DNA of 64,000 nucleotides. Source: Candidatus Omnitrophota bacterium (lineage in GTDB: Bacteria; Omnitrophota; Gorgyraeia; Gygaellales; JBFMHM01). The stretch is from assembly GCA_040753015.1 (NCBI GenBank), contig JBFMHM010000003.1, positions 83,463 through 147,462 on the forward strand. Direction: 5' to 3'. Positions within the stretch are counted from its first letter, which is position 1; each line of letters opens with the position of its first letter. The notes beneath the pieces are model-generated. The model was not told the DNA's origin. It worked only from the letters and a program-made list of their open reading frames with translations, and did not search any database. The translations under genes were made by a program, and so were the position numbers. Shown piece after piece: positions 2,078-49,036 of this stretch.

Positions 2078-3110
2078 TTTTTATCCTTAAAGGTAAAATA
2101 TAAATTTTAATTTGCGCATTATCAAATATTGATTTAAATTGTTCTAACCTAACCCAATCTTTTTCTGTAGTAAATATTATTTTATTATTCCTCATATTGC
2201 AAGATGCAACTATTTTATCTATATCGGCTTTCCTAAAAGAATAATGATCATAAAAATTAAATTCTAATATAATATCAAACCCGGAATTTAATAATATATT
2301 TTTAAAACTAAGGGGCGAGGCTATACTCGTAATAGTGCAAATCTTATTTTCTCTTATGATAGGCAAAATCAATTCATATGCAGCCTCAAAAATTAGCGCT
2401 TTTTTATTAAACTTATAAATAATTTTTTTTATATTATCAATATTTTCTTTTTTTATTAAATTTGATTTAGAAATAATTATAATATCTGCTCTAGCTATAG
2501 AGCTTAACGGCTCTCTTAATATACCTCTAGGTATAACCATAAAATTTCCAAAAGGATTAAGTGCATCAATAGCCAATATATTTAAATCTTTTCTAATTGA
2601 AAATTGCTGAAACCCATCATCTAATATAATTGTATCTACATTAAATTTATTCTTAGCGATTTCAGCACCTTTTTTTCTATCGCTATTAACTATAACCGGA
2701 ATATCAAGTTTTTGTTTTAATAAATATGGCTCATCCCCCATTATTTTATAATCTATTTTTGATTCTTGATTTTTTCCGCCTAAGGCGGATCTGCCTTTGG
2801 CAGAGATTTTTGATTTTCTTTTATATCCCCTTGTTAAAATAGCAGGCCTGCGGCCCTGATTAATCAGATAGCGTGCAATAAACTCGACGATCGGAGTTTT
2901 GCCTGTACCGCCCCAAGTAATATTACCCACACTTATAACTTTAAAAGGCAAAGTATATGTTTTAAAAATCTTCAATCTAAAACATAAAAGAACGATTCTT
3001 AACAATTCCGAATAAACCAAAGAAAGGCAAAAAAGATAAAATTTTATTAAACTTACAAAAATGCCTTTTTTATTATCAGTAATTATGGAATATAAATAAT
3101 CTTTCATCAT
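2025..3110 (-). CDS. lpxK: Tetraacyldisaccharide 4'-kinase
   Basis: P-loop GNITWGGTGKTP is characteristic of LpxK; ~360 aa; in a lipid A cluster. Contains a short in-frame GC-rich palindromic insert (SAKGRSALGGK). Confidence 0.8.
   Translation of the reverse strand: MMKDYLYSIITDNKKGIFVSLIKFYLFCLSLVYSELLRIVLLCFRLKIFKTYTLPFKVISVGNITWGGTGKTPIVEFIARYLINQGRRPAILTRGYKRKSKISAKGRSALGGKNQESKIDYKIMGDEPYLLKQKLDIPVIVNSDRKKGAEIAKNKFNVDTIILDDGFQQFSIRKDLNILAIDALNPFGNFMVIPRGILREPLSSIARADIIIISKSNLIKKENIDNIKKIIYKFNKKALIFEAAYELILPIIRENKICTITSIASPLSFKNILLNSGFDIILEFNFYDHYSFRKADIDKIVASCNMRNNKIIFTTEKDWVRLEQFKSIFDNAQIKIYILPLRIKIEDEAKLFSRIFTVYLG
2777..2807. repeat. GC-rich double-hairpin element, copy A (CCGCC-TAA-GGCGG then TCTGCC-TTT-GGCAGA), in frame inside lpxK
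   Basis: Seen directly. Encodes SAKGRSALGGK within LpxK. Flanked by TTGATTTT on both sides, a possible 8-bp target duplication. Confidence 0.6.
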
Positions 3111-18648: not shown

Positions 18649-19455
18649 TCAAAATTTGGGTTTAATGCTATATTTCTCTATAAGCAGCGGAATTGTTTGT
18701 TTGGCATTTACGATCAAATCTGCTTCGGTTTCTTCGAATAAAAATGGCCTAAGCGTTTCAGCTTGTTTTTTTAATTCATCATTAGAAAAATCCTCTATTC
18801 TTTTTATAATGCTATCTAAGGGGTTGGATTTAATCCCTAATGCCCTCAAAACATCAATATTAATTGGATACTTATTGGAAAGCATAAACATAATATCATA
18901 AATATGCCTTGCGCGATTTTTCTTATTTAAAGCATCTATTTTATCCGCAAATAACGCTCCTTTTTCCGTGCATATACAAGGATATAGCTCACCAAAGGCG
19001 GATATAAGTTGGGTGTCTGGCTTTATTTCCCATTTAGGATTATTGGTTTCTACTTTAATAATAATACCTGATTTTTGTGAATATTTAGATATAACATTAT
19101 ATGATTTTTCAATATCAGGAAAAATTAATTTTGAAACATAAATATTATCCCAATGGCCAAATTCCAGCGCTAATTTTATTCCAACGCGTTCTAATTCTAT
19201 TTTTATTTTTTTTAAAATACCCTCGAATAAAACTCTATCCATATTGCTTGCATTAAAATCCAAATCCTCAGAAAATCTCTTTAGATTATGCACCAGTCTT
19301 AAATAAGTTCCGCCGGTGAAAAAAAGCGATTTGGTTTGTTTGTATAATTCCTTTAATACTAGAACCTGTAAATACTCCCTCAAAATTCCTCTAACTTTAC
19401 TAGTAGGCATTTGTCTTACCTTGGCTTGCTCTATTAAAGAATCATAGGTTAGCAT
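18649..19455 (-). CDS. Nucleotidyltransferase AbiEii/AbiGii toxin family (DUF1814) of a type IV toxin-antitoxin system
   Basis: Hallmark motif GGTYLRLVHNLKRFSEDLDF; ~268 aa; overlaps the upstream AbiEi-like gene by 14 nt. Confidence 0.7.
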   Translation of the reverse strand: MLTYDSLIEQAKVRQMPTSKVRGILREYLQVLVLKELYKQTKSLFFTGGTYLRLVHNLKRFSEDLDFNASNMDRVLFEGILKKIKIELERVGIKLALEFGHWDNIYVSKLIFPDIEKSYNVISKYSQKSGIIIKVETNNPKWEIKPDTQLISAFGELYPCICTEKGALFADKIDALNKKNRARHIYDIMFMLSNKYPINIDVLRALGIKSNPLDSIIKRIEDFSNDELKKQAETLRPFLFEETEADLIVNAKQTIPLLIEKYSIKPKF

Positions 19456-20053
19456 AAATCAACTCCTTTAGGTTAAGCTTATAAATTTGCGCGTATTTAT
19501 CCAATTTTTTCTTCTTGAGATTGGAAATAATATCTCTATCAAGCCTCTCTTCTTCAAAATTAAATTTTTTATTGCGATAAGTTTTAAAATATAAATAATC
19601 CACTAATGCTTTTTCCGGTTCAGCAATAAAAATATCAAAGTTTCCCTGTTTTTCTACATAATAACCGCAAAATGCCTCTGGCTTAACTGTACGATAGGTA
19701 AAAAGGCCGTGTTTATTTTTAAATTTACGCGTAGATTTTGTAGTAACAGAAGTTACACTCATAGCAACTTCGGAAATAATACTATAATTAGATAGAGCTG
19801 TCTCTAGAGACACATAAGATGGCGCATACAATCTATTTGCAATATAAAAATCCGGAATATTGAAATCTCTGGGGTAGCTTAATTCGTAACACTCTTTCTT
19901 TAAAGCAGTTAACCAGCCCTTCTCTTTCCATCTAGAAATCATTTTCTTAAGATTGATTTTATTTTCTTTGGGAAAAAATGCTAAAGTATCTTTAAAAGAA
20001 AAAAGGTAATATTTATTTTGCTCCAATTTTCCGTATAAATCATGGAATTTCAT
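19442..20053 (-). CDS. AbiEi-like antitoxin / transcriptional regulator (COG5340 family)
   Basis: YVSLETALSNYSIISE and IAEPEKALVDYLY motifs typical of AbiEi; directly upstream of, and overlapping, the AbiEii gene. Confidence 0.55.
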   Translation of the reverse strand: MKFHDLYGKLEQNKYYLFSFKDTLAFFPKENKINLKKMISRWKEKGWLTALKKECYELSYPRDFNIPDFYIANRLYAPSYVSLETALSNYSIISEVAMSVTSVTTKSTRKFKNKHGLFTYRTVKPEAFCGYYVEKQGNFDIFIAEPEKALVDYLYFKTYRNKKFNFEEERLDRDIISNLKKKKLDKYAQIYKLNLKELIYANL

Positions 20054-20133
20054 TAAGTATACCTTTCTGTCTACCTACGGAAATAAGTATATAATACAAA
20101 TTTCCTTCTGTCAAGTTTATTTTCAAAAAAGTT

Positions 20134-23100
20134 TTACCCAACAATTGTAATCTGTATTTGCGACAAGTCAATACCGCCGGTTGTAACAGGCGCGGTTTTT
20201 GCGCCTTGTCCTTTAGACGATACAGATTGTGCTTTGGCTAATACTTCCATTTCTTCTAAAGTTGTATTTGGATCGCTCGCCTTAGCCGCAGCAAGGTCAT
20301 CGATAAGCGGCTTAAACACTAGCTCTAATATTTCTTTATAATCACCGGCAATATGCAGGCCTTCTAAGTTAACGCGTATTCCAGCTTTAATTTCATTTAA
20401 AGCGGCAATAAGTAAATCAAATGATTGCTCATCATAATATTTATCGCTAGTTAATATTCTAATTACTTGCTTTGCCCGCTCAGTAATAGGGGCATCTAAT
20501 AAATCCGAGCCATTTAATTTAGCGATAAGTTCTTGTTTTAAAGCGGGCGATAAAACCGCTGCGCTAAATTGGTGCTCGGTTAATTTAGGAGCTTTAGCGT
20601 TAGCGCGAATACGATCAATTGTTCTTTGTAATTCTAAAAGTGCAGCTGGGTCTATTTTAACAATAGCCGTCCTTATAACTGATTCCATATCATATGAATC
20701 ACCAAGAGCTTTAAAATATGGTAACTGTTTAATCAAGAATTCAACTGTAGCTGGATCAGCGATCCGACCAAGCGCATTAATAATGGCTTTCCACTCTTGA
20801 ATTTTATCATCATACGAGGTCTCTGCCGCATGTTTTCCCATAACATCTTGATATGCCTTGATAAGCGCTTCTACTATTACCGGATTTCTTTCTCGTCCAA
20901 ACAGACGAATTATAGCCATCCTTTTATTTACATCATTGCTTACTTGAAGGTCCCTAATAACGCGCGAAACGCGTATTGGCACGCCTAACGCTTCAAGAAA
21001 AGGAAATAAAATTTTATCACAATAAGCTTGGTCGGTCTTAGGCAATCGATTGATTAAATCTTTGCGCCAGTTTGCCCATTGCTCAATTTCCGGATTAAAA
21101 CAACATCTTACATATTCTAAAAAAGCTTTGGTAAAAACACTCTGCGTATCTTCATATAAGGGGCGGGTAAGATCACCGGATTTTAATCTTACATATATTG
21201 CTTGTTCAAAATCTTTAATTATTAGATCTATCACAACCTTATTGCCAGCCTGCGATAAAGCAACAATAATAGCTTCTAAATCTTTGTCTTTCTGTAAAAG
21301 CCGTTTTAATTTCGTATATTGCTTTTCAGTAAAGCTTTCCTGATGAGTATTTGCTATTTGTATAAGGCTTGCTAATACTTCGGGTTTATTTTCATCTTGC
21401 GGTAATTGTTGCCTACGAGTTGGGGCTTGCGCATATTCTACGCGCCCAAGTAATACACTGACCGCCTCTTCTGTACCAATCTTACCCAACTCTGTAATAG
21501 CATCTTTGCGTGTTTGGTCTGGGTCGGTTCTCATTGCAATAAGCACACGAAAGTCTGCTTTTAGTTTAGGCCAATTATAATCAGTAGTTTCAATGATTTG
21601 AGCACATCTTTTAACTGCTTGCTCTCTTTGGCCTTTAGTCAAATCTTCAGCAAGTAATACACCGGTTAGCTGGAATTCAAGCTCTGTATTATAACGGCTA
21701 TCTCTTTTGCAAAGTTCAGTGTGTATTGCAACCATTGTATCTATTGCTTCAATTGCCGGGCCAAGAAGAATACGCTCTGCTAATCTGCGTGAGCCTTGAT
21801 GACATAGCTGTTGATTATTAACCATAGCATCAAGTGTCTCTACTGCTTTATCTTGATCAATTTTAGTTAAAAGTAATGACAAGAATTCAATACATTGAAC
21901 CTCATCGGATAACTTATAACTAACTATAGCTAATCTAGGCTGGTTTTGGCCTAGCGTATTTATAAAAATAGCTATTACCTGAGGTTCTTGTACGGCTATA
22001 AGCTCTACCATAAGATCAAAGGCAACAACGCCTTTAGCTTTAGCAAAGCCTGATAATGCTTTAACAACATCTGCTGGCAAGCGGCCAAGTATACATATAT
22101 CCGAGACTCTTCTTAGTTCTCTTGCGTATACTTGCTGCGGTGAGTCACTATCTGTTGTTCTTGCTGTAGCTGCAACACTGGCTTGTTGTTTTAATTTTTG
22201 CAACTTATCATAACTTCTACTAAGTTCAGTTTGTATTGCTTCTATGTCATCGATACTCTTTTGAAAGCTTATAGTTTCTGTTTGGCCTTTAGTTACAGTT
22301 CCTTGCTGCCTTATTGCATCTACTAAAGCAATAAGACTATTTACAGTAGTAAGCCCGGCAATTTTATCTTCGGTTTCAAGATGAGTTCTGATAGCAGCAA
22401 TATATGGTTTATATATTCTTGTTTCCATCATATGGGCAAGCACATAACAAGATAATGGTAAATTAATAAGGACTTCTTCAGTAAGTGTTCCTTTATATTG
22501 AGCAAAGCAAAGCCTAGCTCTTGCAGAGTCTAAAAAGCTTAGCCAAGTTATTAGGCTTACCACATCATCAGAAGTCCTGGCAAAACTACCCATAAATACT
22601 AAAGTTGCTGTTTCTGTATCTAAGTAAGTGAGTAATTCTAATACAGCTGGTTGTATATCTGGCTGCCTTGTAAGATTAACTAACATTCTAACGGCTTGTT
22701 CTTTATTACAATTAGTGCTTATAAGCAGTGCTATTTGACTAAACGCTTCTTGTCTTTGGGAGTTAGTAAGACAAGTTGCTTCTTGAAGCAATGTTCTTAG
22801 CCTTTGAGCAAGCGGTAGGCTTGTAACAGGCCAGGCCTTGTTTCTTGGAGAGAACATATCCATAACTCGCTTAGCTATACCTAATTCTTGCGGCTTTTCT
22901 TCATCTTCTGATACTTGAGCTTCTGGAATAGCTAAAGCAGTTATTGTTGTTCTTGCTTCAACAACATAATCTTCAAATAAAATACCAGCTGCTTGTAATT
23001 GTAATTCTGACCGTCTTTCATCTGTTATTGCCTCTGTAACAACAGCTAATCCTGGCGTAGATAGTTCAACATTAGTTACAAATATTGGCCTGTTGGCAAT

Positions 23101-26100
23101 ATACCTTAAGTTCCATCCTAACCTATTTATGAAGTAGCCTGCTCTTTGAGCTTTAGTGCCGTTATCTGCAGTTTGCGTATCACTAACCTGCTCTAACGTT
23201 AGATTATCCCTTAAAGATACGAAGAAATCATCTTGAATATTGCCATTAGTAATAGTCTCATTAACAACATCAACCAAGTATTCAAATACTAATCTTAGTT
23301 CTTGTAAAGAAGAGCTTGTTAGATTATTAATAACGCCTCTTGATAACAAGGCTGTTTCGCTATCTATGTAAGCTAAGGCAGTTTCAAGTATTAGCCTTTG
23401 CTCTTGACTGCCAGCTTGAGCATGCCTAATCATGCGCCTAAAATCAAGTAAGGTATATGCTAAATGCCTGCGCCTCTGCTCTGAATAAGCTAGGCCTTTA
23501 GATAAGTCTAAGTCTTGAAGCATGGGGCTTATACCGCTAGTTGCAGCTGCAGCTAAGACTGGGAGGGTTTGTGGAGAAGCAGCAGGGATTTCTGCTGTTC
23601 TTACCACACCAGACTTTTGGCTTTGAGTGGTTTGTTTTAGAGTTAACAAGCCTTTTCTGGTTTTTTCGTATTCTACGGTTACTTCTATACCTAGGATATC
23701 TTTTAAGGCTTGGGCTAAGTCTGTTGAGTCAGAGGTTTGAAGTAGTGTTAGAAAGTTTATTTCTTTACCTGTTTTTTCTCTTAATTGTTTATCTATTTCG
23801 TTGATGACTTTTTGAAGGGCTTCATTAGGCGCTGCACCTCCTCTTCCAAATTCAATGCCTAGTAAGTCGCAAAGGTCTTCTTCTAATTGCTTGAGTTTAG
23901 CTTTTTTGGTTTTCTTTTCTGAATAAAGCTGGTTTAAGTTAATTCCTGCGTCCTTTACTATTTGCTCAAGGCTAATGCCTTTTTCTTCTAAGTAATCTAT
24001 TACCACATGGCCTGTCTCATGGCCTTGAATGAAGTTAAGTACTTGCTCTAATGTAGGTATATTGTTATTAAAGTATTGCCTGAAATCTTTTAAATGCTTT
24101 TTTAATAGGTTACGGTTTACAATGTATATTGTACGAATATACTTAGTTATTCCTTCTACTACCTTCATTACCCTTGTAAATAGGCCGTGTATACGGTTAC
24201 GTAACATTAATGTTCTGTAAAGAAGGCGAAAACCAATTTCATATTGCTCAACAATGTCTTCTATTTTTTCTTCGCCACAGCATCTTAATGTTACGCCGTT
24301 TACTGTAATTTCGCTAGCTAATCCAGTTCTTTTGCGAGCACTATGAAGCCTTGCCGCAATAGCAGGTATTTCTGAATTTAAACTAGCATCTTCGATATGA
24401 ATATTACCATAGGTTATAGTAGTTTTTAATCTCCAAATTATTATACCTCTAGAGCCACTGGCATCACGTTGAAAGCCAACCTGCTCTATCATCATTTCTA
24501 ATGTATCCAAAATATAAACAAGATTTTCGCGGCTGATACCAGGACATAAATTCTCAACTTTTTCCTTAAGTATTTCATATATTCTGGATATACCACCACG
24601 AACACCAATCATAACGTTATCTCCAAAAACAAGAGATAATACTTTTTTTGCAAATTGCACTGATTCAGACAAAGAACCAGAAACTATTGAAGAATCTCTT
24701 TTAGCCCATATAGAATGCCCTTTAGTAACAGAACTATCACCTATATATTCTAATCGGCTCTCCACAATAGCAATTATTCTATCAACCATATTCGTATCCA
24801 TATTAGGATAATATTGCAATATGGTATTCCTAATACTTTGAAATAAATCAATTTTATCTCCAGGCCATTCTATCATCATAGTTCGATGCGATCGCCCTTG
24901 AGTCGGATCTGTTAGCTGTGAATTAGTAAAAAGGCTGGCCAGTATTTGTTCTGCTAAAAGGCGGCATTTTTCTTCCATCTCCATAGCTGACAATACAGCT
25001 GTTTTTGAAATTCCACCTTCTTTTAAAACGGCTTCATTAATTATTCGAAGTTCACTGGGCATTTTTGTAGTATCTACCTTTACATCAGCAAGCCCTATAG
25101 CTGTTAATCGTTCTTCTAATGTAGAGGCATCTGTGGTAAGAAATGTGGTTAGGCTTTGTTTCAATTGTCCTTTTAGAATGCTATCGAGCTTTTCAAGCTC
25201 ATCTTCTAAGTCTTTTGGTATGGCTATTTGCCCTAAGGCAAAGGCTAAACCAAATATATCTGCAAGCCGTTCTTCTTCAGTTTCAGATATTTCAGTTAAA
25301 AGATTACCTTGTAATTTTAGATTATCAATAAGTGCATGAAAGGTTTCGTGGCCATCTAAAAACCTAAGTGCTTGTTCTAATGTAGGAACAAAACCAAATA
25401 TTGGCTCAAAATCAGATAAGTGTTCTTGCACGCTCTGTTTATTTACATAAATAACTTTGCCATCTAATGTACGAACATATAAACCATGAATTAATGCTCT
25501 TTGTTCTTCAAATTGTTTTGTTTCTGGATTCCAAGTTAAAACACCTTTACAATTCGTTTTTTGTATTTTAAAGGCTTTTACCACATCACCAGGAGCAACA
25601 ATTTCTGAAAGAGGCATTGTAACATTAACTCCCCCACTAACATAGCTTCTTCTAATATTAGCCTTTAGCTCTTCATTGTAGTTAGTTTTAGAGAGGTGGT
25701 ATTCTCCTTGTTTTACTGAGTCTAGGTATGCAGCAAAGATTTGTTGTGGGGTTACAGGTTCTTTTGAGATAAGACCGTTTAGGTTGTTGGTGTTAATGAT
25801 TGATGAAAAGGCGTTCTTCAGTTCGTCCGTTCGCTGGTTCGTCAGTTCTTCTAACTTTTCGCTTTGACTTTTCCCGCCTGAGGCGGGTCCGCCTTTGGCG
25901 GATACGTTTTCTTTGTACCACTTAGCTAGTATTATTGCATTGTAAATTTGTCTTAGTGACTCATAGCTAGGGTCATGGTTTACTTTATAGGTTAGGTTAG
26001 GTAGTATTAGTTCTTTTAGTTGAGCTTCACAGTAGGATTGTAACTCTTGGTTGTTATCAAACTCCCCCTTTATCCCCCTCTTTGGTAAAGAGGGGGTCTG

Positions 26101-26772
26101 GGGGAGTTGTAGATACTCACTTTCCAGTAACACTTTCAGTGTTGATTTGGTTATTACACAGCTACCTTTTCCGTCTTCGTATACTTCTGCTTTGTCTGGG
26201 ACTATCCAGACACGGAAGGTTGTGGGAATACTAAGGGTTCGTCTGTTCTTCAGTTCGCCAGTTCGTCGGTTAGATAATTGTTTTGCCTTGGCAAATACAC
26301 GTTCCCAATAGGTAGTTGCTCCTGTAGATAATCCGGGAAATAGGCTAAAGGCTGTGTCTTTCTTAAGCTTTAGGTCTAGGAGTAGTAGATGCTTACCCAT
26401 GTCTGTGTAGGATAGATTAGTTCCTGTGAGCCTGTTAGGTTGGTTTGGGTTAAGGTTAACCCAGAATTCAGAGTCGTCTATTGTTAGAGCTGTTAGAAAG
26501 TAGTTTATGTTGGTCTGTAGGTTGTTACGTTGGTCTAGGGAAAGAATGGTGCCTTTGGGGATGTTTAGGTTGAATTGGATACCTGTAGAGACGCACTGCA
26601 GTGCGTCTCTACCATTTAAATCAATGCCCAATAATGTTGGGTTTAATTGCCCTGATGATATTTGGGTTATGTTTTGAAAACCATAACATAAGTGGTTAAA
26701 ACAAAAAATCCCTGCTAATAATAAGATAAATATACGTTTCATAGTTAAATTCATGATTAAATCAAAAATCAA
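20134..26772 (-). CDS. Giant secreted multidomain protein (2212 aa): signal peptide, two tandem zincin-like HExxH modules, long HEAT/PBS-lyase-like C-terminal region
   Basis: Single uninterrupted ORF with a hydrophobic N-terminus. Two HExxH sites, GHETFHA at aa 474-480 (nt ~25330-25350) and GHETGHV at aa 917-923 (nt ~24001-24021). Each is preceded by the same PTLEQ(A/V)L.F..GHE context and followed by E-rich ...EERLADIFG / ...EEDLCDLLG segments resembling thermolysin NEAISDIFG. The C-terminal ~1200 aa are helical repeats such as NPVIVEALIKAY...ALGRIADPATVEFLIKQL. Confidence 0.7.
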   Translation of the reverse strand: MIFDLIMNLTMKRIFILLLAGIFCFNHLCYGFQNITQISSGQLNPTLLGIDLNGRDALQCVSTGIQFNLNIPKGTILSLDQRNNLQTNINYFLTALTIDDSEFWVNLNPNQPNRLTGTNLSYTDMGKHLLLLDLKLKKDTAFSLFPGLSTGATTYWERVFAKAKQLSNRRTGELKNRRTLSIPTTFRVWIVPDKAEVYEDGKGSCVITKSTLKVLLESEYLQLPQTPSLPKRGIKGEFDNNQELQSYCEAQLKELILPNLTYKVNHDPSYESLRQIYNAIILAKWYKENVSAKGGPASGGKSQSEKLEELTNQRTDELKNAFSSIINTNNLNGLISKEPVTPQQIFAAYLDSVKQGEYHLSKTNYNEELKANIRRSYVSGGVNVTMPLSEIVAPGDVVKAFKIQKTNCKGVLTWNPETKQFEEQRALIHGLYVRTLDGKVIYVNKQSVQEHLSDFEPIFGFVPTLEQALRFLDGHETFHALIDNLKLQGNLLTEISETEEERLADIFGLAFALGQIAIPKDLEDELEKLDSILKGQLKQSLTTFLTTDASTLEERLTAIGLADVKVDTTKMPSELRIINEAVLKEGGISKTAVLSAMEMEEKCRLLAEQILASLFTNSQLTDPTQGRSHRTMMIEWPGDKIDLFQSIRNTILQYYPNMDTNMVDRIIAIVESRLEYIGDSSVTKGHSIWAKRDSSIVSGSLSESVQFAKKVLSLVFGDNVMIGVRGGISRIYEILKEKVENLCPGISRENLVYILDTLEMMIEQVGFQRDASGSRGIIIWRLKTTITYGNIHIEDASLNSEIPAIAARLHSARKRTGLASEITVNGVTLRCCGEEKIEDIVEQYEIGFRLLYRTLMLRNRIHGLFTRVMKVVEGITKYIRTIYIVNRNLLKKHLKDFRQYFNNNIPTLEQVLNFIQGHETGHVVIDYLEEKGISLEQIVKDAGINLNQLYSEKKTKKAKLKQLEEDLCDLLGIEFGRGGAAPNEALQKVINEIDKQLREKTGKEINFLTLLQTSDSTDLAQALKDILGIEVTVEYEKTRKGLLTLKQTTQSQKSGVVRTAEIPAASPQTLPVLAAAATSGISPMLQDLDLSKGLAYSEQRRRHLAYTLLDFRRMIRHAQAGSQEQRLILETALAYIDSETALLSRGVINNLTSSSLQELRLVFEYLVDVVNETITNGNIQDDFFVSLRDNLTLEQVSDTQTADNGTKAQRAGYFINRLGWNLRYIANRPIFVTNVELSTPGLAVVTEAITDERRSELQLQAAGILFEDYVVEARTTITALAIPEAQVSEDEEKPQELGIAKRVMDMFSPRNKAWPVTSLPLAQRLRTLLQEATCLTNSQRQEAFSQIALLISTNCNKEQAVRMLVNLTRQPDIQPAVLELLTYLDTETATLVFMGSFARTSDDVVSLITWLSFLDSARARLCFAQYKGTLTEEVLINLPLSCYVLAHMMETRIYKPYIAAIRTHLETEDKIAGLTTVNSLIALVDAIRQQGTVTKGQTETISFQKSIDDIEAIQTELSRSYDKLQKLKQQASVAATARTTDSDSPQQVYARELRRVSDICILGRLPADVVKALSGFAKAKGVVAFDLMVELIAVQEPQVIAIFINTLGQNQPRLAIVSYKLSDEVQCIEFLSLLLTKIDQDKAVETLDAMVNNQQLCHQGSRRLAERILLGPAIEAIDTMVAIHTELCKRDSRYNTELEFQLTGVLLAEDLTKGQREQAVKRCAQIIETTDYNWPKLKADFRVLIAMRTDPDQTRKDAITELGKIGTEEAVSVLLGRVEYAQAPTRRQQLPQDENKPEVLASLIQIANTHQESFTEKQYTKLKRLLQKDKDLEAIIVALSQAGNKVVIDLIIKDFEQAIYVRLKSGDLTRPLYEDTQSVFTKAFLEYVRCCFNPEIEQWANWRKDLINRLPKTDQAYCDKILFPFLEALGVPIRVSRVIRDLQVSNDVNKRMAIIRLFGRERNPVIVEALIKAYQDVMGKHAAETSYDDKIQEWKAIINALGRIADPATVEFLIKQLPYFKALGDSYDMESVIRTAIVKIDPAALLELQRTIDRIRANAKAPKLTEHQFSAAVLSPALKQELIAKLNGSDLLDAPITERAKQVIRILTSDKYYDEQSFDLLIAALNEIKAGIRVNLEGLHIAGDYKEILELVFKPLIDDLAAAKASDPNTTLEEMEVLAKAQSVSSKGQGAKTAPVTTGGIDLSQIQITIVG
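25873..25902. repeat. GC-rich double-hairpin element, copy B (CCCGCC-TGA-GGCGGG then TCCGCC-TTT-GGCGGA), in frame inside the giant gene
   Basis: Seen directly. Encodes SAKGGPASGGKS at aa 291-302 of the giant protein. Same orientation and reading frame as copy A. Confidence 0.6.
26077..26099. repeat. Nested GC-rich hairpin CCCCCTCTTT-GGTA-AAGAGGGGG (outer ACTCCCCC...GGGGGAGT) in frame in the giant gene
   Basis: Seen directly; encodes PSLPKRGIKG; strongly GC-rich against a ~30% GC background. Confidence 0.5.
26585..26612. repeat. Perfect 28-bp palindrome GTAGAGACGCACTGCAGTGCGTCTCTAC in frame in the giant gene
   Basis: Seen directly; encodes GRDALQCVST near the signal peptide. Confidence 0.5.
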
Positions 26773-26885
26773 AATGCAAAAATCAAAATTACAAATTAAA
26801 ATTCAAAATTAGATTCAAATACCCTAAAATCTTTAATTTTTGATATGTCATTTTGATATTTGATTTTTAATATTTGATATATTCT
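26758..26885. promoter_or_regulatory. AT-rich iterated motif block upstream of the giant gene (AAAATCAAAAT repeats facing TTTGATAT/TTTGATTTT repeats)
   Basis: Seen directly: at least 5 AAATCAAAA-type units at 26758-26820 and at least 4 TTTGAT(A/T)T units at 26838-26880, reverse complements of each other. Lies in the ~365-bp region 5' of the giant ORF. Confidence 0.3.
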
Positions 26886-26954
26886 TATAGTATAAGTATG
26901 CACTATAGATAGGCTAATTTCAAGGGTTTTGGGGCGAAAAATGTAAGCGGTTAC

Positions 26955-26990
26955 AAATCAGGTATACCTCTTGGTGATTATACCTGATTT
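26955..26990. other. Perfect 12-bp inverted repeat AAATCAGGTATA ...12 nt... TATACCTGATTT (stem-loop)
   Basis: Seen directly, in the intergenic region between the leuA-3' duplicate and the giant gene; no flanking T-run. Confidence 0.3.
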
Positions 26991-27060
26991 GATCCCGAGT
27001 CATACGAGGGAACTATCATATAACCACTTTAAAATACTAGACTTAAGAATTACGCAGTAT

Positions 27061-27127
27061 ATTTATTTATTGCGTTTAGGTAGGCTTTAATTGAGGCTTC
27101 AATTACATCTGTTGAACTGCCGCGGCC
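27061..27127. repeat. Direct-repeat copy (~67 bp, ~90% identical) of the leuA 3'-terminal coding segment 28187..28253
   Basis: 27061-27115 is identical to 28187-28241 (55/55), then ~10/14 more bases match. This copy lies 10 bp beyond the yhcG-like stop, so the ~1.06-kb yhcG segment is bracketed by the repeats. Confidence 0.7.
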
Positions 27128-27137
27128 AATTTTAAGT

Positions 27138-28145
27138 TTATTTCACAATATTTAATTTTTTCGCCCAGTCTTTCGATGAGGGCAAATATTTTTTTAGCGT
27201 CTTTGGCAACGACTTATTTAAAGAATATGTCGAAACACCTATCGGTTTTTTAACATCCTTAAGGGCATATTCAACAACTGTACGGCTCTTACTTTTACAA
27301 ATAATAATTCCAATGGCCGGATTTTCTTCTTCAAGTTTATCCCGATCATTAAGCGCAGAAAGATAAAACTGCATCTTCCCAGCATACTCAGGTTTAAAAT
27401 CGCCGATCTTAAGCTCAATTGCAACTAAACATCTCAATTTTCTATGATACAAAAGAATATCCACGAAATATTCGCGGCCGTCAATCTCTATCCTATGTTG
27501 ATTGGTGATAAAACAAAAGTTTCCGCCTAATTCCAGCAGAAACCGCCTAACATTTACCATGAGTGCCCGCTCCAACTCATTCTCCAAATGCTCATCACCC
27601 AATTCCAAAAAATCAAATGTGTACTCATCCTTAACAGCGAGTTTTGCTTGATTTCGAATATTAACGGGCACTGTTTTGTCAAAGCTAGTCTGATTAAGAA
27701 GCGTTTTATCGTAAGACTGATTCTCGATTTGATGAATAAGAACATCTTTCGTCCACCCGAACTTCTTAGTCATGTTGATATAGAAAACGCGCGCTTCTTC
27801 TTTCTTGCACTGGCTCATAATAACCAGATGTTTCGCCCAACTAATTTCTCCAACCAATGGTTGGAGAATTAAGCTCCCTTGATATTCTCCATAAAACTGC
27901 CTCATATACCAAAGATTCTGCGACGAAAAACCCTTGATTCCCGGAAATTCCTTTTGTAAATCTTGAGCTAATGTTTCAACAATCGCCTTACCCCACCCAA
28001 ACTCTTTTTGCTTCTCAATAATCCTTCTCCCAATATCCCAATAAAGCGCAATAAGTTCTTTATTAACAACTTTTAATGCTTCATATTGCGAAGAGCGAAC
28101 TCGTTCTTTAATATCCTCAAGAAAAAACTTATAATCACTATTCAA
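27138..28145 (-). CDS. YhcG/DUF1016 family PD-(D/E)xK nuclease
   Basis: N-terminus (...YEALKVVNKELIALYWDIGRRIIEKQKEFGWGKAIVETLAQDLQKEFPGIKGFSSQNLWYMRQFY...) matches the conserved YhcG-N/DUF1016 pattern. The C-terminal region has a PD-(D/E)xK-like core (IGIIICK...). Confidence 0.65.
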   Translation of the reverse strand: MNSDYKFFLEDIKERVRSSQYEALKVVNKELIALYWDIGRRIIEKQKEFGWGKAIVETLAQDLQKEFPGIKGFSSQNLWYMRQFYGEYQGSLILQPLVGEISWAKHLVIMSQCKKEEARVFYINMTKKFGWTKDVLIHQIENQSYDKTLLNQTSFDKTVPVNIRNQAKLAVKDEYTFDFLELGDEHLENELERALMVNVRRFLLELGGNFCFITNQHRIEIDGREYFVDILLYHRKLRCLVAIELKIGDFKPEYAGKMQFYLSALNDRDKLEEENPAIGIIICKSKSRTVVEYALKDVKKPIGVSTYSLNKSLPKTLKKYLPSSKDWAKKLNIVK

Positions 28146-28175
28146 TTTTAGCTTCGTAATGTCCTCGCTTTTATG

Positions 28176-29681
28176 TTAAACGACTAATTTATTTATTGCG
28201 TTTAGGTAGGCTTTAATTGAGGCTTCAATTACATCTGTTGACGAGCCACGGCCAAAGATTTCTTTATTTTTTATAGTTAGTTTTAGCGTTACTTCCCCTT
28301 GAGCGTCTTTACCGTGAGTTACCGCAGAAATTTTATAGTCAGAAAGTTTTGGTGTTAATTTAGTAATTTTATCAATTGTTCTAAAACAGGCATCAACCGG
28401 ACCATCCCCCGAAGACTCTGCACAAACATTCTTTCCTTCAAATTTTAAAATAATTGCGCTTTTTGGTTTGATCTTATTACCTGAAGTTATTTCAAAACTT
28501 TGCAATTTATAGATTTCTTTAACTTTTTTTATTTCTTCATCTAAAATAATCAATAAATCATCATCAAAAATTTCTTTTTTCTTATCGGCAAGATCTTTAA
28601 ATTTTATAAAAGCCTCATCAATTTGTTTTTGGCTTAATTTAAATCCTAATTTTTCAAGGCGGCTAGTAAAGGCATGACGGCCAGAGTGTTTTCCAAGCAC
28701 AATTCCTTCAATAATAAAACCGACATCTTCAGGGTTAATTATTTCATATGTTGATGCCTCTTTTAATACACCGTCCTGGTGAATTCCTGACTCATGACGA
28801 AAAGCATTTCCACCAACAATTGCTTTATTCCGCGGAACCTCAAAACCCGTAAGTTTACTAACCAAGCGAGAAGTCTTGCAAATTTCTTTTGTATTGATCG
28901 TTGTATATAAATTTTTGAATATGTTTTTCTTTACCCACATCGCCATAACTATTTCTTCTAAGCTTGCGTTTCCTGCGCGCTCACCAATACCATTAATAGT
29001 ACATTCCACTTGGCGCGCCCCATTTAAAACTGCACTCAAACTATTTGCACTAGCAAGTCCTAAGTCATTATGACAATGCACAGAAATAACTACCCTATCA
29101 ATATTAGGCACATTATTTTTTATATCACGAATAAGTTCGCCAAAACCCTGCGGCTCAGTAAAACCAACGGTATCGGGAATATTTATCGTTTTTGCACCAA
29201 CATCAATTACAGCTTCTACGACTTTATACAAAAATTCTTTTTCTGTCCTTGCCGCATCTTCTGGAGAAAATTCAATATCGTTAATATATTTTTTCGCATA
29301 TTTTACACTCTCAACTGCCAGGCGCAAAATTTCATCTTTAGCCTTATTAAGCTTGAATTTTCTATGAATTGGGGATGTTGCTAAAAATACATGTATACGA
29401 GGACGCTTTGCTTTTTTAACAGCCTGATATGCCGCGTCTATATCTTTACGGGTTGCACGCGCTAAGCCGCACACGCCGCATTTTTTTATTTTCAAAGCAA
29501 CAGTCTCAACCGCCTTAAAATCTCCTGGGCTTGCAATAGGAAAACCTGCTTCAATAATATTAACCCCTAAGCGCTCTAACTGTAAAGCAACTTCAAGCTT
29601 TTCTTGAGGGTTTAATGCTGCGCCCGGCGCCTGTTCTCCATCACGCAGAGTCGTATCAAAAATAACTACTTTTTCATCCAT
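28176..29681 (-). CDS. leuA: 2-isopropylmalate synthase
   Basis: N-terminal [11 protein letters not shown] and HxH motifs (HCHNDLGLA); ~500 aa with the LeuA dimerisation/regulatory C-terminus. Confidence 0.85.
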
Positions 29682-30655
29682 GGCATCATATCACGCAGCT
29701 TACGGCCAGTCTCTTCTATCTTATGGCTATCGCCTTCAGTAATCAAACGGTTAAAGTTTGGACGGCCCGCTTCATTTTCTTTAATCCATTCCTTAGCAAA
29801 TTTGCCTTTTTGAATTTCTTTTAATATTTTCTTCATTTCTTTGCGCGTTTTATCTGTGATAATACGTGGACCGCGGGTCAAATCCCCATAACAAGCAGTA
29901 TTTGAAACACGCCTGCGCATTCCAGAGATACCATATTCTTGAATTAAATCCGTTATAAGTTTTAATTCATGTAAAACTTCAAAATAAGCAATCTCTGGTT
30001 GATAACCTGCTTCAATAAGTGTATCAAAACCAGCCTTGATTAATTCTGAAACACCACCGCAAAGAACTGCTTGCTCACCAAATAAATCTGTTTCGGTTTC
30101 TTCCTTAAAATTAGTTTCAATTACGCCAGCCTTTGTTGCACCAAGTGCTTTTGCATAGCTAAGAGCAATCTTTAAAGCATTGCCAGTTGCATCCTGATAA
30201 ATGGCAACTAATGATGGCACACCCTTTCCTTCTTCGTACATACGGCGCACTAAAGCTCCTGGGCCTTTGGGTGCAACCATAAACACATCTACATTTTTTG
30301 GCGGGCGAATTTGTTTAAAATGAATATTAAATCCATGAGAAAAACAAAGTGCTTTACCTTTTTTTAGATTTGGTTTAATTGCATCATTGTAAACTTTTGC
30401 CTGCACATGGTCTTGAGTTAAGATTTGAATGATATCAGCTTGTTTTGCCGCCTCTTCTGCTGAGACCGGCGCAAAACCATCGCGTATTGCGCTTTCAAAA
30501 TTTGGGGTTCCTTTTATTTCAGAAACAATAACATTAATTCCAGAATCTCTTAAACACAAACTTTGGCCTCTACCTTGAATACCGTAGCCAATAATTGCAA
30601 CTTTTTTATTTTTTAAAATATTTAGATCTGCGTCTTTATCATAATAAATCTTCAT
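29666..30655 (-). CDS. ilvC: Ketol-acid reductoisomerase
   Basis: [21 protein letters not shown] Rossmann motif and KARI fold; ~329 aa. Confidence 0.9.
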
Positions 30656-30706
30656 TATGCCTCCTCGTTATTTTTTTATTAACTACCTAATCTTTCTAGA
30701 ATCATC

Positions 30707-31264: not shown

Positions 31265-31731
31265 TCTTTACAATTAATGGCTTCTTGAAGGACATTTGTT
31301 ACTTCCTTACTGTTAATCATATATTTTCTTTTTCCTCCGGAATCCATTTTCAAATTAGTTGTTTGACCATTTTCTGATTTAATAGGCATAGTATCTCTAT
31401 ATTCTTGAACCATGGCTTTTACAAATTCTGGCGATAATTTGCATTCCATCTTACCACCACCTGGTAATTCTTGAATATAATGGCACCTATCTCCTTCCTT
31501 GCCAATTATCTCTCTTGTAAGCGTCTGCCCGCTGAAAGGATCCATAGTTTTACATTTAAAAGGCTCACCTTTTTCTAATTTATCTGGAAATTCTTTACAA
31601 TATTCTCCCGAAAGAAGCTTCATTTGTTCTTCACTTATAGATATTCCTTCTTGAGCTTCTGCAAAATAGAAACAAACAAGAAAAAGCAATATCACTATAT
31701 TTAAACAAATTATTTTTTTAAACATCTTCAT
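31231..31731 (-). CDS. Hypothetical secreted Cys-containing protein
   Basis: Signal peptide; 6 Cys including a C-terminal CKEC pair; no recognisable domain. Confidence 0.4.
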   Translation of the reverse strand: MKMFKKIICLNIVILLFLVCFYFAEAQEGISISEEQMKLLSGEYCKEFPDKLEKGEPFKCKTMDPFSGQTLTREIIGKEGDRCHYIQELPGGGKMECKLSPEFVKAMVQEYRDTMPIKSENGQTTNLKMDSGGKRKYMINSKEVTNVLQEAINCKECVMSGPGHEQ

Positions 31732-31746
31732 TCTCTTCCCCTTCCA

Positions 31747-32208: not shown

Positions 32209-32209
32209 T

Positions 32210-49006: not shown

Positions 49007-49036
49007 TCCGCCAAAGGCGGATCAGCCTCTGGCTGA
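49007..49036. repeat. GC-rich double-hairpin element, copy C (TCCGCC-AAA-GGCGGA then TCAGCC-TCT-GGCTGA), intergenic between tRNA-Lys and frr, opposite orientation
   Basis: Seen directly. The flanking 12-mer AGCTAGCGGCCC (49037-49048) repeats the 5' end of tRNA-Lys (48935-48946). Confidence 0.55.

What the first reader, a model, noticed from the sequence alone, without database searches (positions are those of the whole stretch)
25800..26650. The 5' third of the giant gene is a hotspot of in-frame palindromes and short direct repeats
Within the first ~330 codons there are five separate in-frame elements. (1) A perfect 28-bp palindrome at 26585-26612 encoding GRDALQCVST. (2) A nested hairpin at 26077-26099 encoding PSLPKRGIKG. 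(3) Double-hairpin copy B at 25873-25902. (4) An imperfect ~38-bp direct repeat at ~25815-25852 encoding QRTDELKN. (5) Its partner at ~26236-26273 encoding RRTGELKNRRT. All are GC-rich against the local background. This points to repeated colonisation of one surface-exposed N-terminal region, or to a mechanism generating sequence variation there.
Basis: seen in the sequence. Interest (0 to 1): 0.6.

Follow-up and report, generated by a model that had tools for sequence, protein, structure and literature searches.

The report
Tiny hairpin repeats colonising a gene
The first ~370 codons of a 2,200-codon gene in an uncultivated Omnitrophota bacterium carry five short in-frame insertions, three of which are tiny GC-rich hairpin repeats (REP-like selfish DNA) that also occur in many other bacterial phyla and have settled in loops the protein tolerates.

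Summary
All five elements exist at or within 3 nt of the stated positions. Four GC-rich perfect hairpins lie in the first 330 codons, none in the other 1,872, and synonymous shuffles give a mean of 0.02.

The five elements are the only insertions in a conserved ~370-aa N-terminal module when it is compared with 139 distant homologues. They show presence/absence differences among close relatives.

Three of them belong to widespread families:
- The 28-bp palindrome (GTAGAGACGC-N8-GCGTCTCTAC) occurs in more than 120 metagenome contigs and 86 viral stretches. It sits inside a RAYT-like tyrosine-transposase gene in 12 of 120 metagenome loci.
- The 30-nt double hairpin occurs in more than 120 genomes, mostly Patescibacteria and Omnitrophota. 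In long ORFs it is read as SAKGGSASGG or SARGGSAFGG in 53 of 66 cases.
- The nested C5/G5 hairpin recurs with the same outer arms in viral or prophage contigs.

The two 8-nt-period arrays were found only among the module's closer relatives (50–97% identity), at three different loops.

The best reading is repeated colonisation of permissive loops by REP-like mini-elements, a known kind of event. Nothing in the window supports a dedicated variation mechanism. Surface exposure was not tested.

The parts
20134..26772 (-). Giant ORF (2,212 codons from TTG). The likely start is the ATG at 26742 (MKRIFILLLAGIF..., signal-peptide-like), giving 2,202 aa.
   Evidence: The N-termini of homologues P0131 and P0001 align to the MKRIF start. 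The only Pfam hit is a weak HEAT_2 match.
25630..26742 (-). Conserved N-terminal module (aa 1-371, ending at ...RRSYVSGG). It is a member of a large uncharacterised family and is joined to an unrelated body.
   Evidence: The family has 6,928 representatives with E<=1e-3, fused to proteins of about 200-4,700 aa among the 150 listed. Identity to P0130 is 94% up to about aa 372 and low beyond, 63% over the whole 576-column alignment. Across the first 330 codons GC3 is 0.33-0.38 and GC3 skew is -0.33 to -0.63. The rest of the gene has GC3 0.20-0.31, and 12 of 13 comparison genes have GC3 0.20-0.30 with positive skew. There is no Pfam domain and no PDB fold match.
26585..26612 (.). Element 1: a 28-bp perfect palindrome with GTAG...CTAC feet, a member of the GTAGAGACGC-N8-GCGTCTCTAC family. 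It is read as (G)RDALQCVST, aa 44-53.
   Evidence: The family occurs in more than 120 metagenome contigs and 86 viral stretches. It is absent from P0132, which is 92% identical. Occupancy in 139 distant homologues is near zero across aa 47-54.
26237..26268 (-). Element 5: an array of four 8-nt units (GTTCNNNN on the + strand). It encodes RRTGELKNRRT, aa 159-169.
   Evidence: Occupancy is 0 at aa 155-162. The related peptide RT[DEG]EL[KT]N occurs at three different loops in P0130-P0134 and P0249. P0001 carries a GTAG...CTAC hairpin pair at this site instead.
26060..26109 (.). Element 2: a nested hairpin. The outer stem is AACTCCCCC/GGGGGAGTT and the inner hairpin is CCCCCTCTTT-GGT-AAAGAGGGGG (26074-26096). 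It encodes QLPQTPSLPKRGIKGEF, aa 212-228.
   Evidence: -19.2 kcal/mol, z = -5.1. The inner-stem pattern was found in 28 viral or prophage stretches. Most of them carry a GGGGGAGAT or GGGGGAGTT arm on one side, and L352 carries both arms. The same peptide is in P0135, which is only 45% identical. It is absent from P0001, P0131, P0133 and P0134.
25873..25902 (-). Element 3: a 30-nt double-hairpin element (DHE), two hairpins of form YCNGCC-NNN-GGCNGR. It encodes SAKGGPASGG, aa 281-290.
   Evidence: The family was found in more than 120 contigs of GTDB species representatives, where 0.14 chance hits are expected. Stem positions covary, and 53 of 66 copies in long ORFs are in one codon register. 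It is present in P0130 and P0249 and absent from P0002, P0131, P0133 and P0134.
25853..25872 (-). Spacer between the DHE and array 1 (aacttttcgctttgactttt; KSQSEK). It resembles the GACTTTT-type short repeats that flank DHE copies elsewhere.
   Evidence: The sequence is. Comparable flanks occur in L024, L047 and L057. It lies within the 25-residue stretch aa 285-309 that distant homologues lack.
25813..25852 (-). Element 4: an array of five 8-nt units. It encodes LEELTNQRTDELKN, aa 297-310.
   Evidence: Mean occupancy is 0.16. It does not fold. It is present in P0130 and P0249 only.
2775..2804 (-). A second DHE copy, in frame in lpxK (SAKGRSALGG). It sits in the variable loop between RGYKR and MGDEP.
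   Evidence: The closest LpxK homologue, P0011, has a different hairpin there (CCCGCCA-N7-TGGCGGG), and P0012 has none.
49007..49036 (+). A third DHE copy, intergenic, 60 nt from the 5' end of tRNA-Lys. The first 12 nt of the tRNA are duplicated beside it (49037-49048).
   Evidence: (D18, I12).

Best explanation
The 5' part of the gene encodes a conserved ~370-aa N-terminal module. At four inter-helix or inter-strand loops this module has accumulated five short DNA insertions.

Three of the insertions are members of families of very small (28-50 nt) GC-rich hairpin repeats:
- a GTAG/CTAC-footed 28-bp palindrome,
- a 30-nt double hairpin,
- a nested C5/G5 hairpin.
The other two are copies of an 8-nt-period array found only among the module's closer relatives.

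Shown here:
- They are insertions relative to the protein family.
- They differ among close relatives.
- The same sequences occur in unrelated genes, intergenic DNA and phage contigs in many phyla.
- Stem positions covary, so hairpin formation is maintained.
- Copies inside genes use only stop-free frames. For the double hairpin, the frame giving Ser/Ala/Gly/Lys predominates.
- The 28-bp family has no target-site duplication. It often sits at the tip of a larger hairpin. It is physically tied to a RAYT-like HUH tyrosine-transposase gene family.

Inferred:
- The elements spread as single-stranded hairpins, moved by HUH tyrosine transposases or a comparable enzyme.
- They land in many places and survive in coding DNA only where length, frame and position (a loop or linker) leave the protein functional.
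- The N-terminal module is a hotspot because it has several permissive loops.
- The module also has a history separate from the rest of the gene. Its codon composition differs, and there is a sharp homology boundary at about aa 371. It therefore carries its decorations with it when it recombines onto other protein bodies.
For: Insertion status: against 139 distant homologues, the only multi-residue stretches of low occupancy after about aa 60 in the query are 47-54, 155-162, 214-220 and 285-309. These are exactly the five elements. The AlphaFold2 model (pLDDT 68, pTM 0.68) places them in low-confidence loops at 42-62, 163-166, 216-227 and 283-308, between confident helices and strands.

Polymorphism among relatives:
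- The palindrome is present in P0130 (94% identical) and absent from P0132 (92%), as a clean 9-aa gap.
- The DHE and array 1 are in P0130 and P0249 but not in P0002 or P0131.
- The nested hairpin peptide is in P0130, P0132, P0002 and the distant P0135, but not in P0001, P0131, P0133 or P0134.
- P0001 and P0131 carry other hairpin-encoded inserts at the same loops.
- P0131 carries one 29-aa composite insert twice.

Families:
- DHE: more than 120 contigs against 0.14 expected. Pairs 1-15 and 3-13 covary (T-A 98 / C-G 24; C-G 85 / A-T 39). Codon-register bias is P = 6e-15.
- Palindrome: more than 120 metagenome and 86 viral stretches. The central 8 nt are fully self-complementary in 89 of 129 copies, with more than 50 different centres. 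There is no direct flank repeat. In 17% of copies the flanks extend the palindrome by at least 3 nt, against 1.6% by chance.
- Hosts are ordinary proteins such as CheA, CheB, a T9SS adhesin and an MmeI-like enzyme.

RAYT link:
- 12 of 120 palindrome-bearing metagenome loci, and none of the other loci, encode a ~185-aa protein. The 10 full-length ones all match NCBIfam NF047646, REP-associated tyrosine transposase.
- In those 10 the palindrome lies in frame after the HUH motif.
- 97 of the best 120 homologues carry the palindrome's peptide, in one of two frames.

Intragenic GTAG- and CGTC-tagged REPs, including several per ORF, are documented (PMC3733652).
Against: No RAYT-like gene or any other transposase that could act on hairpins is present in the 64-kb window. 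The rest of the genome could not be read.

The palindrome and the nested hairpin each occur only once in 64 kb, so high copy number in this genome is unproven.

No mobilising gene was found for the double hairpin or the nested hairpin.

The polymorphism rests on protein sequences of relatives whose DNA and genomic origin could not be retrieved. They may be paralogues rather than orthologues.

The two 8-nt arrays were not found outside this clade. They may arise by local duplication or gene conversion rather than transposition.

No transposition event was observed directly. Taxon labels of the MAGs are the submitters' own.
Confidence: 0.78

Rival explanations
1. The palindromes arose in place, by template switching or quasi-palindrome correction during replication of this gene. 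They would not be imported elements.
For: The palindromes are perfect, and their centres vary while staying self-complementary. Intrastrand templated repair would produce that pattern. In 17% of family members the flanks extend the palindrome. The 8-nt arrays look like local slippage products, and they were not found outside the clade.
Against: The same 20 outer bases of the 28-bp palindrome occur in more than 200 unrelated contexts. The same holds for 20 fixed and 3 two-fold degenerate bases of the double hairpin, and for the same nested arms. Chance expectation is below 1. Independent origin of identical sequences is not credible. Template switching may still maintain their symmetry.
Confidence: 0.07
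2. The elements are selected features of this gene. They would be mRNA or DNA structures that tune translation, pausing, secretion or expression of the giant protein, or peptide linkers selected for function.
For: Stem covariation shows that hairpin formation is maintained. The double hairpin has a strong frame bias toward a Gly/Ser/Ala-rich peptide. The nested hairpin peptide is conserved in a homologue only 45% identical. Di Nocera et al. consider that many REPs act as RNA elements (PMC3733652).
Against: The same elements sit in unrelated proteins, in intergenic DNA, beside tRNA genes and in phages, in both orientations and in several frames. Close relatives of this very module lack individual elements. 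Covariation is equally expected if the hairpin is needed for mobility.
Confidence: 0.08
3. The region is a programmed variation locus. This would be phase variation by slippage of the 8-nt repeats (unit length not a multiple of 3, in the 5' coding region), or a diversity-generating or recombination system using the palindromes.
For: Two 8-nt-period arrays lie in the 5' part of a gene for a probably secreted giant protein. The region differs among relatives. The gene sits next to mobile-type genes.
Against: The 8-nt units share little beyond the GTTC core, which is far from the near-perfect repeats that slip. All relatives keep the reading frame. The 47 ORFs of the window that were scanned contain no reverse transcriptase and no invertase; the only recombinase is one XerC/D-type integrase at 4347-5207. 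The repeat scan shows no template repeat. The variation seen is presence or absence of discrete elements, not targeted substitution.
Confidence: 0.04
4. The palindromes are artefacts of short-read metagenome assembly, such as fold-back chimeras.
For: The window comes from a MAG. One related contig, L001, does end in a fold-back artefact.
Against: All elements keep a 2,200-codon frame open. The same elements are found in hundreds of independent assemblies, including single-cell genomes and megabase-scale contigs. Copies recur at apparently orthologous positions in related genomes, L026/L111 and L069/L092. P0130 and P0249 carry identical peptides.
Confidence: 0.02

Closest known systems
REP/REPIN elements of the GTAG-tagged superfamily and their RAYT (REP-associated tyrosine transposase) genes, including intragenic REPs (Di Nocera et al. 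2013, PMC3733652; Bertels & Rainey 2011, PMC3116915)
   Same: They are short GC-rich stem-loops with a GTAG foot and compensatory stem variation. They occur as singletons or grouped, sometimes inside ORFs, and sometimes several per ORF in linkers or loops. They are associated with an HUH Y1 transposase family. Element 1 shares all of these features.
   Different: Element 1 is a perfect palindrome tagged at both ends (GTAG...CTAC). Its 10-nt arms are identical in contigs of 28-67% GC. In the loci examined the palindrome lies inside the RAYT-like ORF, with upstream copies in L186 and L223, rather than on both flanks. The matches to NF047646 are below the equivalog cut-off (42-65 bits against 80). 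Elements 2 and 3 have no GTAG or CGTC tag. Neither sequence family was found in that paper's supplements.
Rickettsia palindromic elements (RPE), cited in PMC3733652; the details are from my own knowledge of Ogata et al. 2000/2002
   Same: They are palindromic repeats inserted in frame into many unrelated protein genes. They are tolerated at surface positions and are polymorphic between species.
   Different: By my recollection RPE-1 is roughly 100-150 bp and restricted to Rickettsia. The elements here are 28-50 nt and shared across phyla.
Small dispersed repeats (SDR) of Nostoc and related cyanobacteria (Elhai et al. 2008, Genome Res 18:1484). The paper is not held in the library, so this is from memory.
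   Same: They are 21-27-nt hairpin-capable repeats with conserved arms and variable centres. They are often embedded in tandem heptamer repeats and have no known transposase. A subset of copies of both families here is likewise flanked by 6-9-nt tandem repeats.
   Different: Sequence relationship was not tested. SDRs were described as mainly cyanobacterial and mostly non-coding.
Double-hairpin elements and GC clusters of fungal mitochondria (my own knowledge; Paquin et al. 2000)
   Same: They consist of two adjacent short GC-rich hairpins in an AT-rich genome. They are mobile and occasionally lie inside coding or rRNA sequence.
   Different: They are organellar, the sequences are unrelated, and no homology is implied.
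DNA uptake sequences in coding regions (my own knowledge; Findlay & Redfield 2009)
   Same: A short DNA motif is found in genes mostly in particular reading frames and in poorly conserved protein segments. This reflects selection on the encoded peptide.
   Different: Uptake sequences are about 10-30 nt, occur about once per kb and are lineage-specific. The double hairpin here occurs about once per 21 kb, is shared across phyla and forms hairpins.

Membership tests
REP / REPIN (GTAG-tagged, RAYT-associated) | Short (20-40 bp) GC-rich palindrome able to form a stem-loop | tested here: met
   Element 1 folds at -13.4 kcal/mol (z = -6.2). The DHE folds at -13.9 and the nested hairpin at -19.2.
REP / REPIN (GTAG-tagged, RAYT-associated) | GTAG (or CGTC) tetranucleotide at the foot of the hairpin | tested here: met
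   This is met for element 1 only: GTAG at 26585-26588 and CTAC at 26609-26612. The DHE and the nested hairpin have no such tag, so they are not filed as GTAG or CGTC REPs.
REP / REPIN (GTAG-tagged, RAYT-associated) | Family members differ by compensatory stem changes | tested here: met
   In the palindrome family 89 of 129 centres are fully self-complementary, with more than 50 different sequences. The DHE pairs covary.
REP / REPIN (GTAG-tagged, RAYT-associated) | Many copies per genome (tens to thousands) | tested here: inconclusive
   Only 64 kb of this genome is available. It holds 1 copy of element 1, 1 of the nested hairpin and 3 of the DHE. Some other contigs hold 3-4 copies of the palindrome.
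REP / REPIN (GTAG-tagged, RAYT-associated) | A cognate RAYT gene physically linked to the repeats | tested here: inconclusive
   The palindrome family meets this elsewhere. 12 of 120 metagenome loci carry a RAYT-like gene. All 10 full-length ones match NF047646 at E 1e-10 to 1e-18, and each has the palindrome inside the ORF. No such gene was found in this window. Nothing comparable was found for the DHE.
REP / REPIN (GTAG-tagged, RAYT-associated) | Insertion without target-site duplication (HUH Y1 chemistry) | tested here: met
   Direct flank repeats of at least 3 nt occur in 5 of 129 palindrome copies, which is chance level. About 12% of DHE copies do have 9-20-nt direct flank repeats, and this remains unexplained.
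REP / REPIN (GTAG-tagged, RAYT-associated) | Predominantly extragenic location | tested here: not met
   All five elements here are intragenic. In the families, 57 of 132 palindrome copies and 66 of 128 DHE copies lie in ORFs of at least 150 aa. Intragenic REPs are nevertheless documented (PMC3733652).
Rickettsia palindromic elements (RPE) | In-frame insertion in functional protein genes | tested here: met
Rickettsia palindromic elements (RPE) | Element length of roughly 100-150 bp and Rickettsia-specific consensus sequences (my own knowledge) | tested here: not met
   The elements are 28-50 nt, and the host is Omnitrophota.
Cyanobacterial SDR | 21-27-nt repeat with conserved arms and variable centre, embedded in heptamer tandem repeats (from memory) | tested here: inconclusive
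   The architecture is similar. Flanking tandem repeats with an exact run of at least 9 nt occur in 9 of 95 palindrome copies and 4 of 108 DHE copies, against 1 and 0 in controls. Sequence identity to SDR1-8 could not be checked because the paper is not held.
Phase-variable contingency locus (simple sequence repeat) | Near-perfect tandem repeat, unit not a multiple of 3, within the 5' coding region | tested here: not met
   The period is 8, but the units are GTTCTTCA, GTTCGTCC, GTTCGCTG, GTTCGTCA and GTTCTTCT, which share little beyond the GTTC core.
Phase-variable contingency locus (simple sequence repeat) | Unit-number heterogeneity within populations | not testable with these tools
   No reads are available. 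Relatives all keep the frame.
Diversity-generating retroelement | Reverse transcriptase and a template repeat matching the variable region | tested here: not met
   None of the 47 ORFs of the window that were scanned is a reverse transcriptase. The repeat scan shows no long repeat of this region.
MITE | 70-300 bp, terminal inverted repeats of an IS, and a target-site duplication | tested here: not met
   The elements are 28-50 nt and are whole-length hairpins, and the palindrome family has no TSD.

The most novel reading that the evidence does not exclude
The three hairpin families may be members of a largely undescribed, pan-bacterial class of ~30-nt 'nano-elements'. These would move between phyla (Patescibacteria, Omnitrophota, Bacteroidota/Ignavibacteriota, Planctomycetota and phages). 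They would insert without target duplication, preferentially into the loops of existing hairpins, and routinely become translated loop segments of ordinary proteins. For the 28-bp palindrome, the driver would be a RAYT-like transposase family that keeps a copy of its own recognition hairpin inside its coding sequence, read in either of two frames. That arrangement was not found described in the literature I could search.
Probability: 0.35. Interest if true: 0.75.

Novelty: new member of a known kind. Interest (0 to 1): 0.5.

Why it matters
For this gene, the result removes the need for any special variation mechanism. The odd sequences are hitch-hiking repeats in loops of a reusable N-terminal module.

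More generally, identical ~30-nt hairpin elements are written into proteins of many uncultivated phyla. This has several consequences:
- They add 8-25-residue segments to proteins.
- They create spurious 'motifs' such as SAKGGSASGG, VETxxxASL and RDAxxxVST.
- They can mislead homology searches, domain boundaries and gene calling in MAGs.
- They provide natural markers of permissive insertion sites.

Sharing across phyla fits the reported gene exchange among groundwater Patescibacteria, Omnitrophota and Bacteroidota (PMC12455944). The link of one family to a RAYT-like gene that carries the palindrome internally makes the long-standing question of how REP-type elements spread directly testable in vitro.

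Tried and rejected
- Orthologue DNA. The search for related loci with the N-terminal protein found no relative in genome contigs or metagenome contigs. The look-up of encoding contigs found nothing for the window protein or for P0002, P0130, P0131, P0132 and P0135. Only L001 (P0001) gave DNA, and its 3' end is a fold-back artefact.
- Rfam. There were no matches apart from tRNAs, plus two meaningless sub-threshold hits.
- Literature by sequence or peptide string. Searches returned only primers or nothing. The Elhai 2008 paper is not held.
- Approximate matches to the palindrome half-site in L024, L062 and L077 were chance.
- The 8-nt array pattern gave one chance hit in viral contigs and nothing in 1.7 Mb of loci.
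- An IS200 TnpA query written from memory found only one unrelated IS200 in L061. The RAYT-like family was found later by neighbour clustering.
- GIY-YIG genes near the DHE were seen in 4 of 123 loci. I judged this not above my own rough expectation for small GIY-YIG genes in Patescibacteria genomes; that background was not measured.
- Phage contigs with palindrome copies 1,857 nt apart are simply related phages with intergenic copies around capsid genes, not a mobile unit.
- The fold search of the N-terminal module against the PDB gave nothing significant.
Full report
**Context**

The window is a bacterial chromosome segment of about 35% GC. It carries lipid A, shikimate, glycolysis, ilv/leu and ribosomal genes. 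Its LpxK is 100% identical to a protein of an NCBI Candidatus Omnitrophota MAG on a 169.5-kb contig.

The 'giant gene' is the minus-strand ORF 20134-26772. Its probable start is the ATG at 26742, which begins a signal-peptide-like MKRIFILLLAGIF.

**Observation check**

All five elements are present.
- The 28-bp perfect palindrome GTAGAGACGCACTGCAGTGCGTCTCTAC is at 26585-26612.
- The hairpin CCCCCTCTTT-GGT-AAAGAGGGGG is at 26074-26096, 3 nt from the stated position. It is nested in an outer stem, 26060-26068 paired with 26101-26109.
- The double hairpin is at 25873-25902.
- The two 'direct repeats' are arrays of an 8-nt unit GTTCNNNN, at 25813-25852 (5 units) and 26237-26268 (4 units).

As ssDNA, the three palindromic elements fold at -13 to -19 kcal/mol (z = -5.1 to -6.2). 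The arrays do not fold.

The clustering is significant. Four of the window's 12 GC-rich perfect hairpins fall in 851 nt (P = 2e-5). There are none in the remaining 1,872 codons. Synonymous-codon shuffles give a mean of 0.02. The elements are 50-77% GC, against 37% for the rest of the first 990 nt.

**What the region encodes**

Residues 1-371 form a conserved module.
- A full-library HMMER search found 6,928 representatives (E<=1e-3). They are fused to bodies of about 200-4,700 aa among the 150 listed.
- The module has no Pfam domain and no significant PDB fold match.
- P0130 is 94% identical over the module. Similarity becomes weak after about aa 372, and the whole 576-column alignment is 63% identical.
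- P0249 (97%) and P0002 (78%) also diverge there.
- After the elements are masked, the first 330 codons have GC3 0.33-0.38 and a strongly negative GC3 skew. The rest of the gene has GC3 0.20-0.31. Twelve of the 13 comparison genes have GC3 0.20-0.30, and all 13 have positive skew.

The module therefore has its own history and appears to be recombined onto different bodies.

**The elements are insertions in loops**

I aligned the module with 139 homologues of 45% identity or less.
- Query columns from about aa 60 onward are about 100% occupied.
- The exceptions are residues 155-162, 214-220 and 285-309, plus two single residues.
- Upstream, occupancy rises gradually but drops to zero at 47-52.
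- These stretches are exactly the palindrome, array 2, the nested hairpin, and the DHE-spacer-array 1 block.

An AlphaFold2 model (pLDDT 68, pTM 0.68) places them in low-confidence loops between confident helices and strands.

**Presence/absence among relatives**

| Element | Present in | Absent from |
|---|---|---|
| Palindrome peptide | window, P0130 | P0132 (92% identical; clean 9-aa gap) |
| DHE and array 1 | window, P0130, P0249 | P0002, P0131, P0133, P0134 |
| Nested-hairpin peptide | window, P0130, P0132, P0002, P0135 (45% identical) | P0001, P0131, P0133, P0134 |

- The array peptide RT[DEG]EL[KT]N appears at three different loops in different relatives.
- Relatives carry other hairpin-encoded inserts at the same loops. 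In P0001 these are GTAGGGGCGCCCCTTGTGGGTGCCC...GACCCTCCCCTAC at site 5 and TCCGCCA-N7-TGGCGGA at site 2.
- P0131 carries one 29-aa composite twice.
- None of about 140 more distant family members carries any of these peptides.

The caveat is that the relatives are known only as proteins.

**The double hairpin (DHE) family**

The window has three copies: the giant gene, lpxK (in frame, SAKGRSALGG), and beside tRNA-Lys.
- The pattern GCCNNNGGCNGRTCYGCCTTTGGCRGA hit at least 120 contigs of GTDB species representatives, where 0.14 are expected.
- By record title (counted by hand), 69 are Patescibacteria/CPR and 8 are Omnitrophota.
- The rest include Planctomycetota, Ignavibacteriota, Zixibacteria, Bacteroidota, Elusimicrobia, Bdellovibrionales and 'uncultured Gammaproteobacteria'.
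- Only 3 viral contigs matched.
- Positions the pattern left free covary: T-A 98 / C-G 24, and C-G 85 / A-T 39. TT and AA flank the element.
- In ORFs of at least 150 aa, 53 of 66 copies are in the codon register that reads SAKGGSASGG or SARGGSAFGG (P = 6e-15).
- In LpxK the element lies in the variable loop between RGYKR and MGDEP. The closest homologues have a different hairpin or nothing there, and other Omnitrophota have still other hairpin peptides.

**The 28-bp palindrome family**

- GTAGAGACGC-N8-GCGTCTCTAC hit at least 120 metagenome contigs of 28-67% GC and 86 viral stretches.
- The central 8 nt are fully self-complementary in 89 of 129 copies, with more than 50 different sequences.
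- Only the two stop-free frames are used in long ORFs: VETxxxASL in 34 and RDAxxxVST in 23.
- Hosts sampled are ordinary proteins. They include CheA, CheB, a T9SS adhesin, a histidine kinase, and an MmeI-like enzyme with four copies.
- There is no target duplication. 17% of copies sit at the centre of a longer palindrome, against 1.6% by chance. That fits insertion into hairpin loops and the nesting seen in the window.
- In the phage contigs examined the copies are intergenic.

**Link to a transposase**

I clustered the ORFs lying within 2.5 kb of palindrome copies. This found a ~185-aa protein in 12 of 120 metagenome loci, two of them partial, and in none of the other 2 Mb of loci or the window.
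- All ten full-length copies match NCBIfam NF047646, REP-associated tyrosine transposase. E-values are 1e-10 to 1e-18, below the equivalog cut-off. They also match Pfam Y1_Tnp weakly.
- In every one the palindrome lies inside the ORF, in frame, shortly after the HUH motif (median about 11 residues among the 120 homologues).
- The family has at least 2,511 members from several phyla. Some are named RayT by JGI.
- Of the best 120, 90 carry VETxxxASL and 7 carry RDAxxxVST. Most of the rest carry degenerate versions.
- The same DNA is read in two frames at one position in homologous proteins. This shows that the DNA palindrome is what is conserved, not a peptide motif.

This makes element 1 a REP-type element with a probable cognate RAYT.

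**Nested hairpin and arrays**

The inner-stem pattern of the nested hairpin occurs in 28 viral or prophage stretches. It usually has GGGGGAGAT or GGGGGAGTT arms, as in the window, and L352 has both arms. Similar C5TCT...AGAG5 hairpins occur in DHE-bearing loci.

The 8-nt arrays were not found elsewhere. Their origin is open: local duplication, gene conversion among loops, or the short tandem repeats that accompany a minority of hairpin copies.

**Comparison with what is known**

Di Nocera et al. 2013 (PMC3733652) describe GTAG- and CGTC-tagged REP superfamilies in 8 phyla. They report intragenic copies, several per ORF, probably in linkers or loops. Rickettsia RPEs are the classic in-frame case.

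The finding is therefore a new instance of a known kind. I did not find the following described:
- these particular families;
- their identical sequence across phyla;
- the doubly tagged perfect palindrome;
- its position inside the RAYT-like gene.

**Verdict**

- The colonisation reading is supported.
- Surface exposure is untested.
- A variation-generating mechanism is not supported.
- The mechanism of spread is inferred, with good support for element 1 only.

Noticed in passing
Loci L127, L132, L144, L145, L186, L188, L207, L221, L223, L225 (partial copies in L193 and L233): A RAYT-like (REP-associated tyrosine transposase) gene family carries the GTAGAGACGC...GCGTCTCTAC palindrome inside its own ORF, shortly after the HUH motif, read in either of two frames. 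97 of the best 120 homologues show the encoded peptide. L186 and L223 also have a copy just upstream of the gene.
   Followed up: partly
window 2775-2804: A double-hairpin copy is in frame in lpxK (SAKGRSALGG), in the variable loop between RGYKR and MGDEP. It is flanked by AATCAAAAAT-type direct repeats. Other Omnitrophota LpxK proteins carry different hairpin-encoded peptides (PCLSGRQACLPGRQA, PCLAGRQ) in the same loop.
   Followed up: partly
window 48873-49048: A double-hairpin copy (49007-49036) lies 60 nt from the 5' end of tRNA-Lys. It is followed by a 12-nt duplicate of the tRNA 5' end (49037-49048). L043 shows a similar 20-nt duplication of what looks like a tRNA gene end next to a copy.
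   Followed up: no
window 27061-27143 and 28187-28269: An 83-nt direct repeat (88% identical, with a 55-nt perfect core) is the 3' end of leuA duplicated on both sides of a YhcG/DUF1016 PDDEXK nuclease gene (27138-28145). This looks like a gene-cassette insertion with a long target duplication.
   Followed up: partly
window 18649-37459: The ilv-leu operon and its surroundings are interrupted by mobile-type genes. These are AbiEii toxin (18649-19455), the giant gene, the YhcG nuclease, an ORF6N-domain protein (30707-31264), a Bro-N protein (33939-34787) and a DNA methylase (36458-37459).
   Followed up: no
window 26759-26890 and 40524-40559: A/T-rich heptamer-type arrays (AAATCAA... then TTTGATA...) fill the region upstream of the giant gene. 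A 36-nt stretch is 92% identical in inverted orientation to the start of the pfk gene (MQKSKIK...). Similar short repeats flank hairpin elements in other genomes.
   Followed up: no
L001 2206-2319: The end of this ENA contig is the reverse complement of its own positions about 1906-2020. This is a fold-back assembly artefact, so the C-terminal 30 residues of P0001 are not real.
   Followed up: yes
P0131 (residues 172-200 and 343-371) and P0134 (about 320-345): A 29-aa composite insert, VGAIPCLAGRQARNRPITDGRKHGFAPTD, occurs twice in one protein. The peptide suggests a GTAG-type palindrome with another hairpin nested in its loop, but no DNA was available. A version without the nested part is in P0134 at a further loop.
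   Followed up: no
L136 171-1520: One MmeI-like restriction-modification gene (DUF7149 and DUF7814 domains) carries four in-frame copies of the 28-bp palindrome within 1.4 kb. This is a hotspot comparable to the one in the window.
   Followed up: partly
window 20134-20180 and P0249 C-terminus: The giant protein and P0249 share a C-terminal ending, GGIDLSQIQITIVG and GGIDLSGVEITVFG, despite unrelated middle parts. It may be a sorting signal that goes with the N-terminal module.
   Followed up: no
DHE copies in L024, L034, L043, L056, L080 and others: About 12% of double-hairpin copies have 9-20-nt direct repeats of flanking sequence on both sides, against 2 of 114 controls. This is unlike the palindrome family, which has none. 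The cause is unexplained: variable target duplication, or insertion into tandem repeats.
   Followed up: partly
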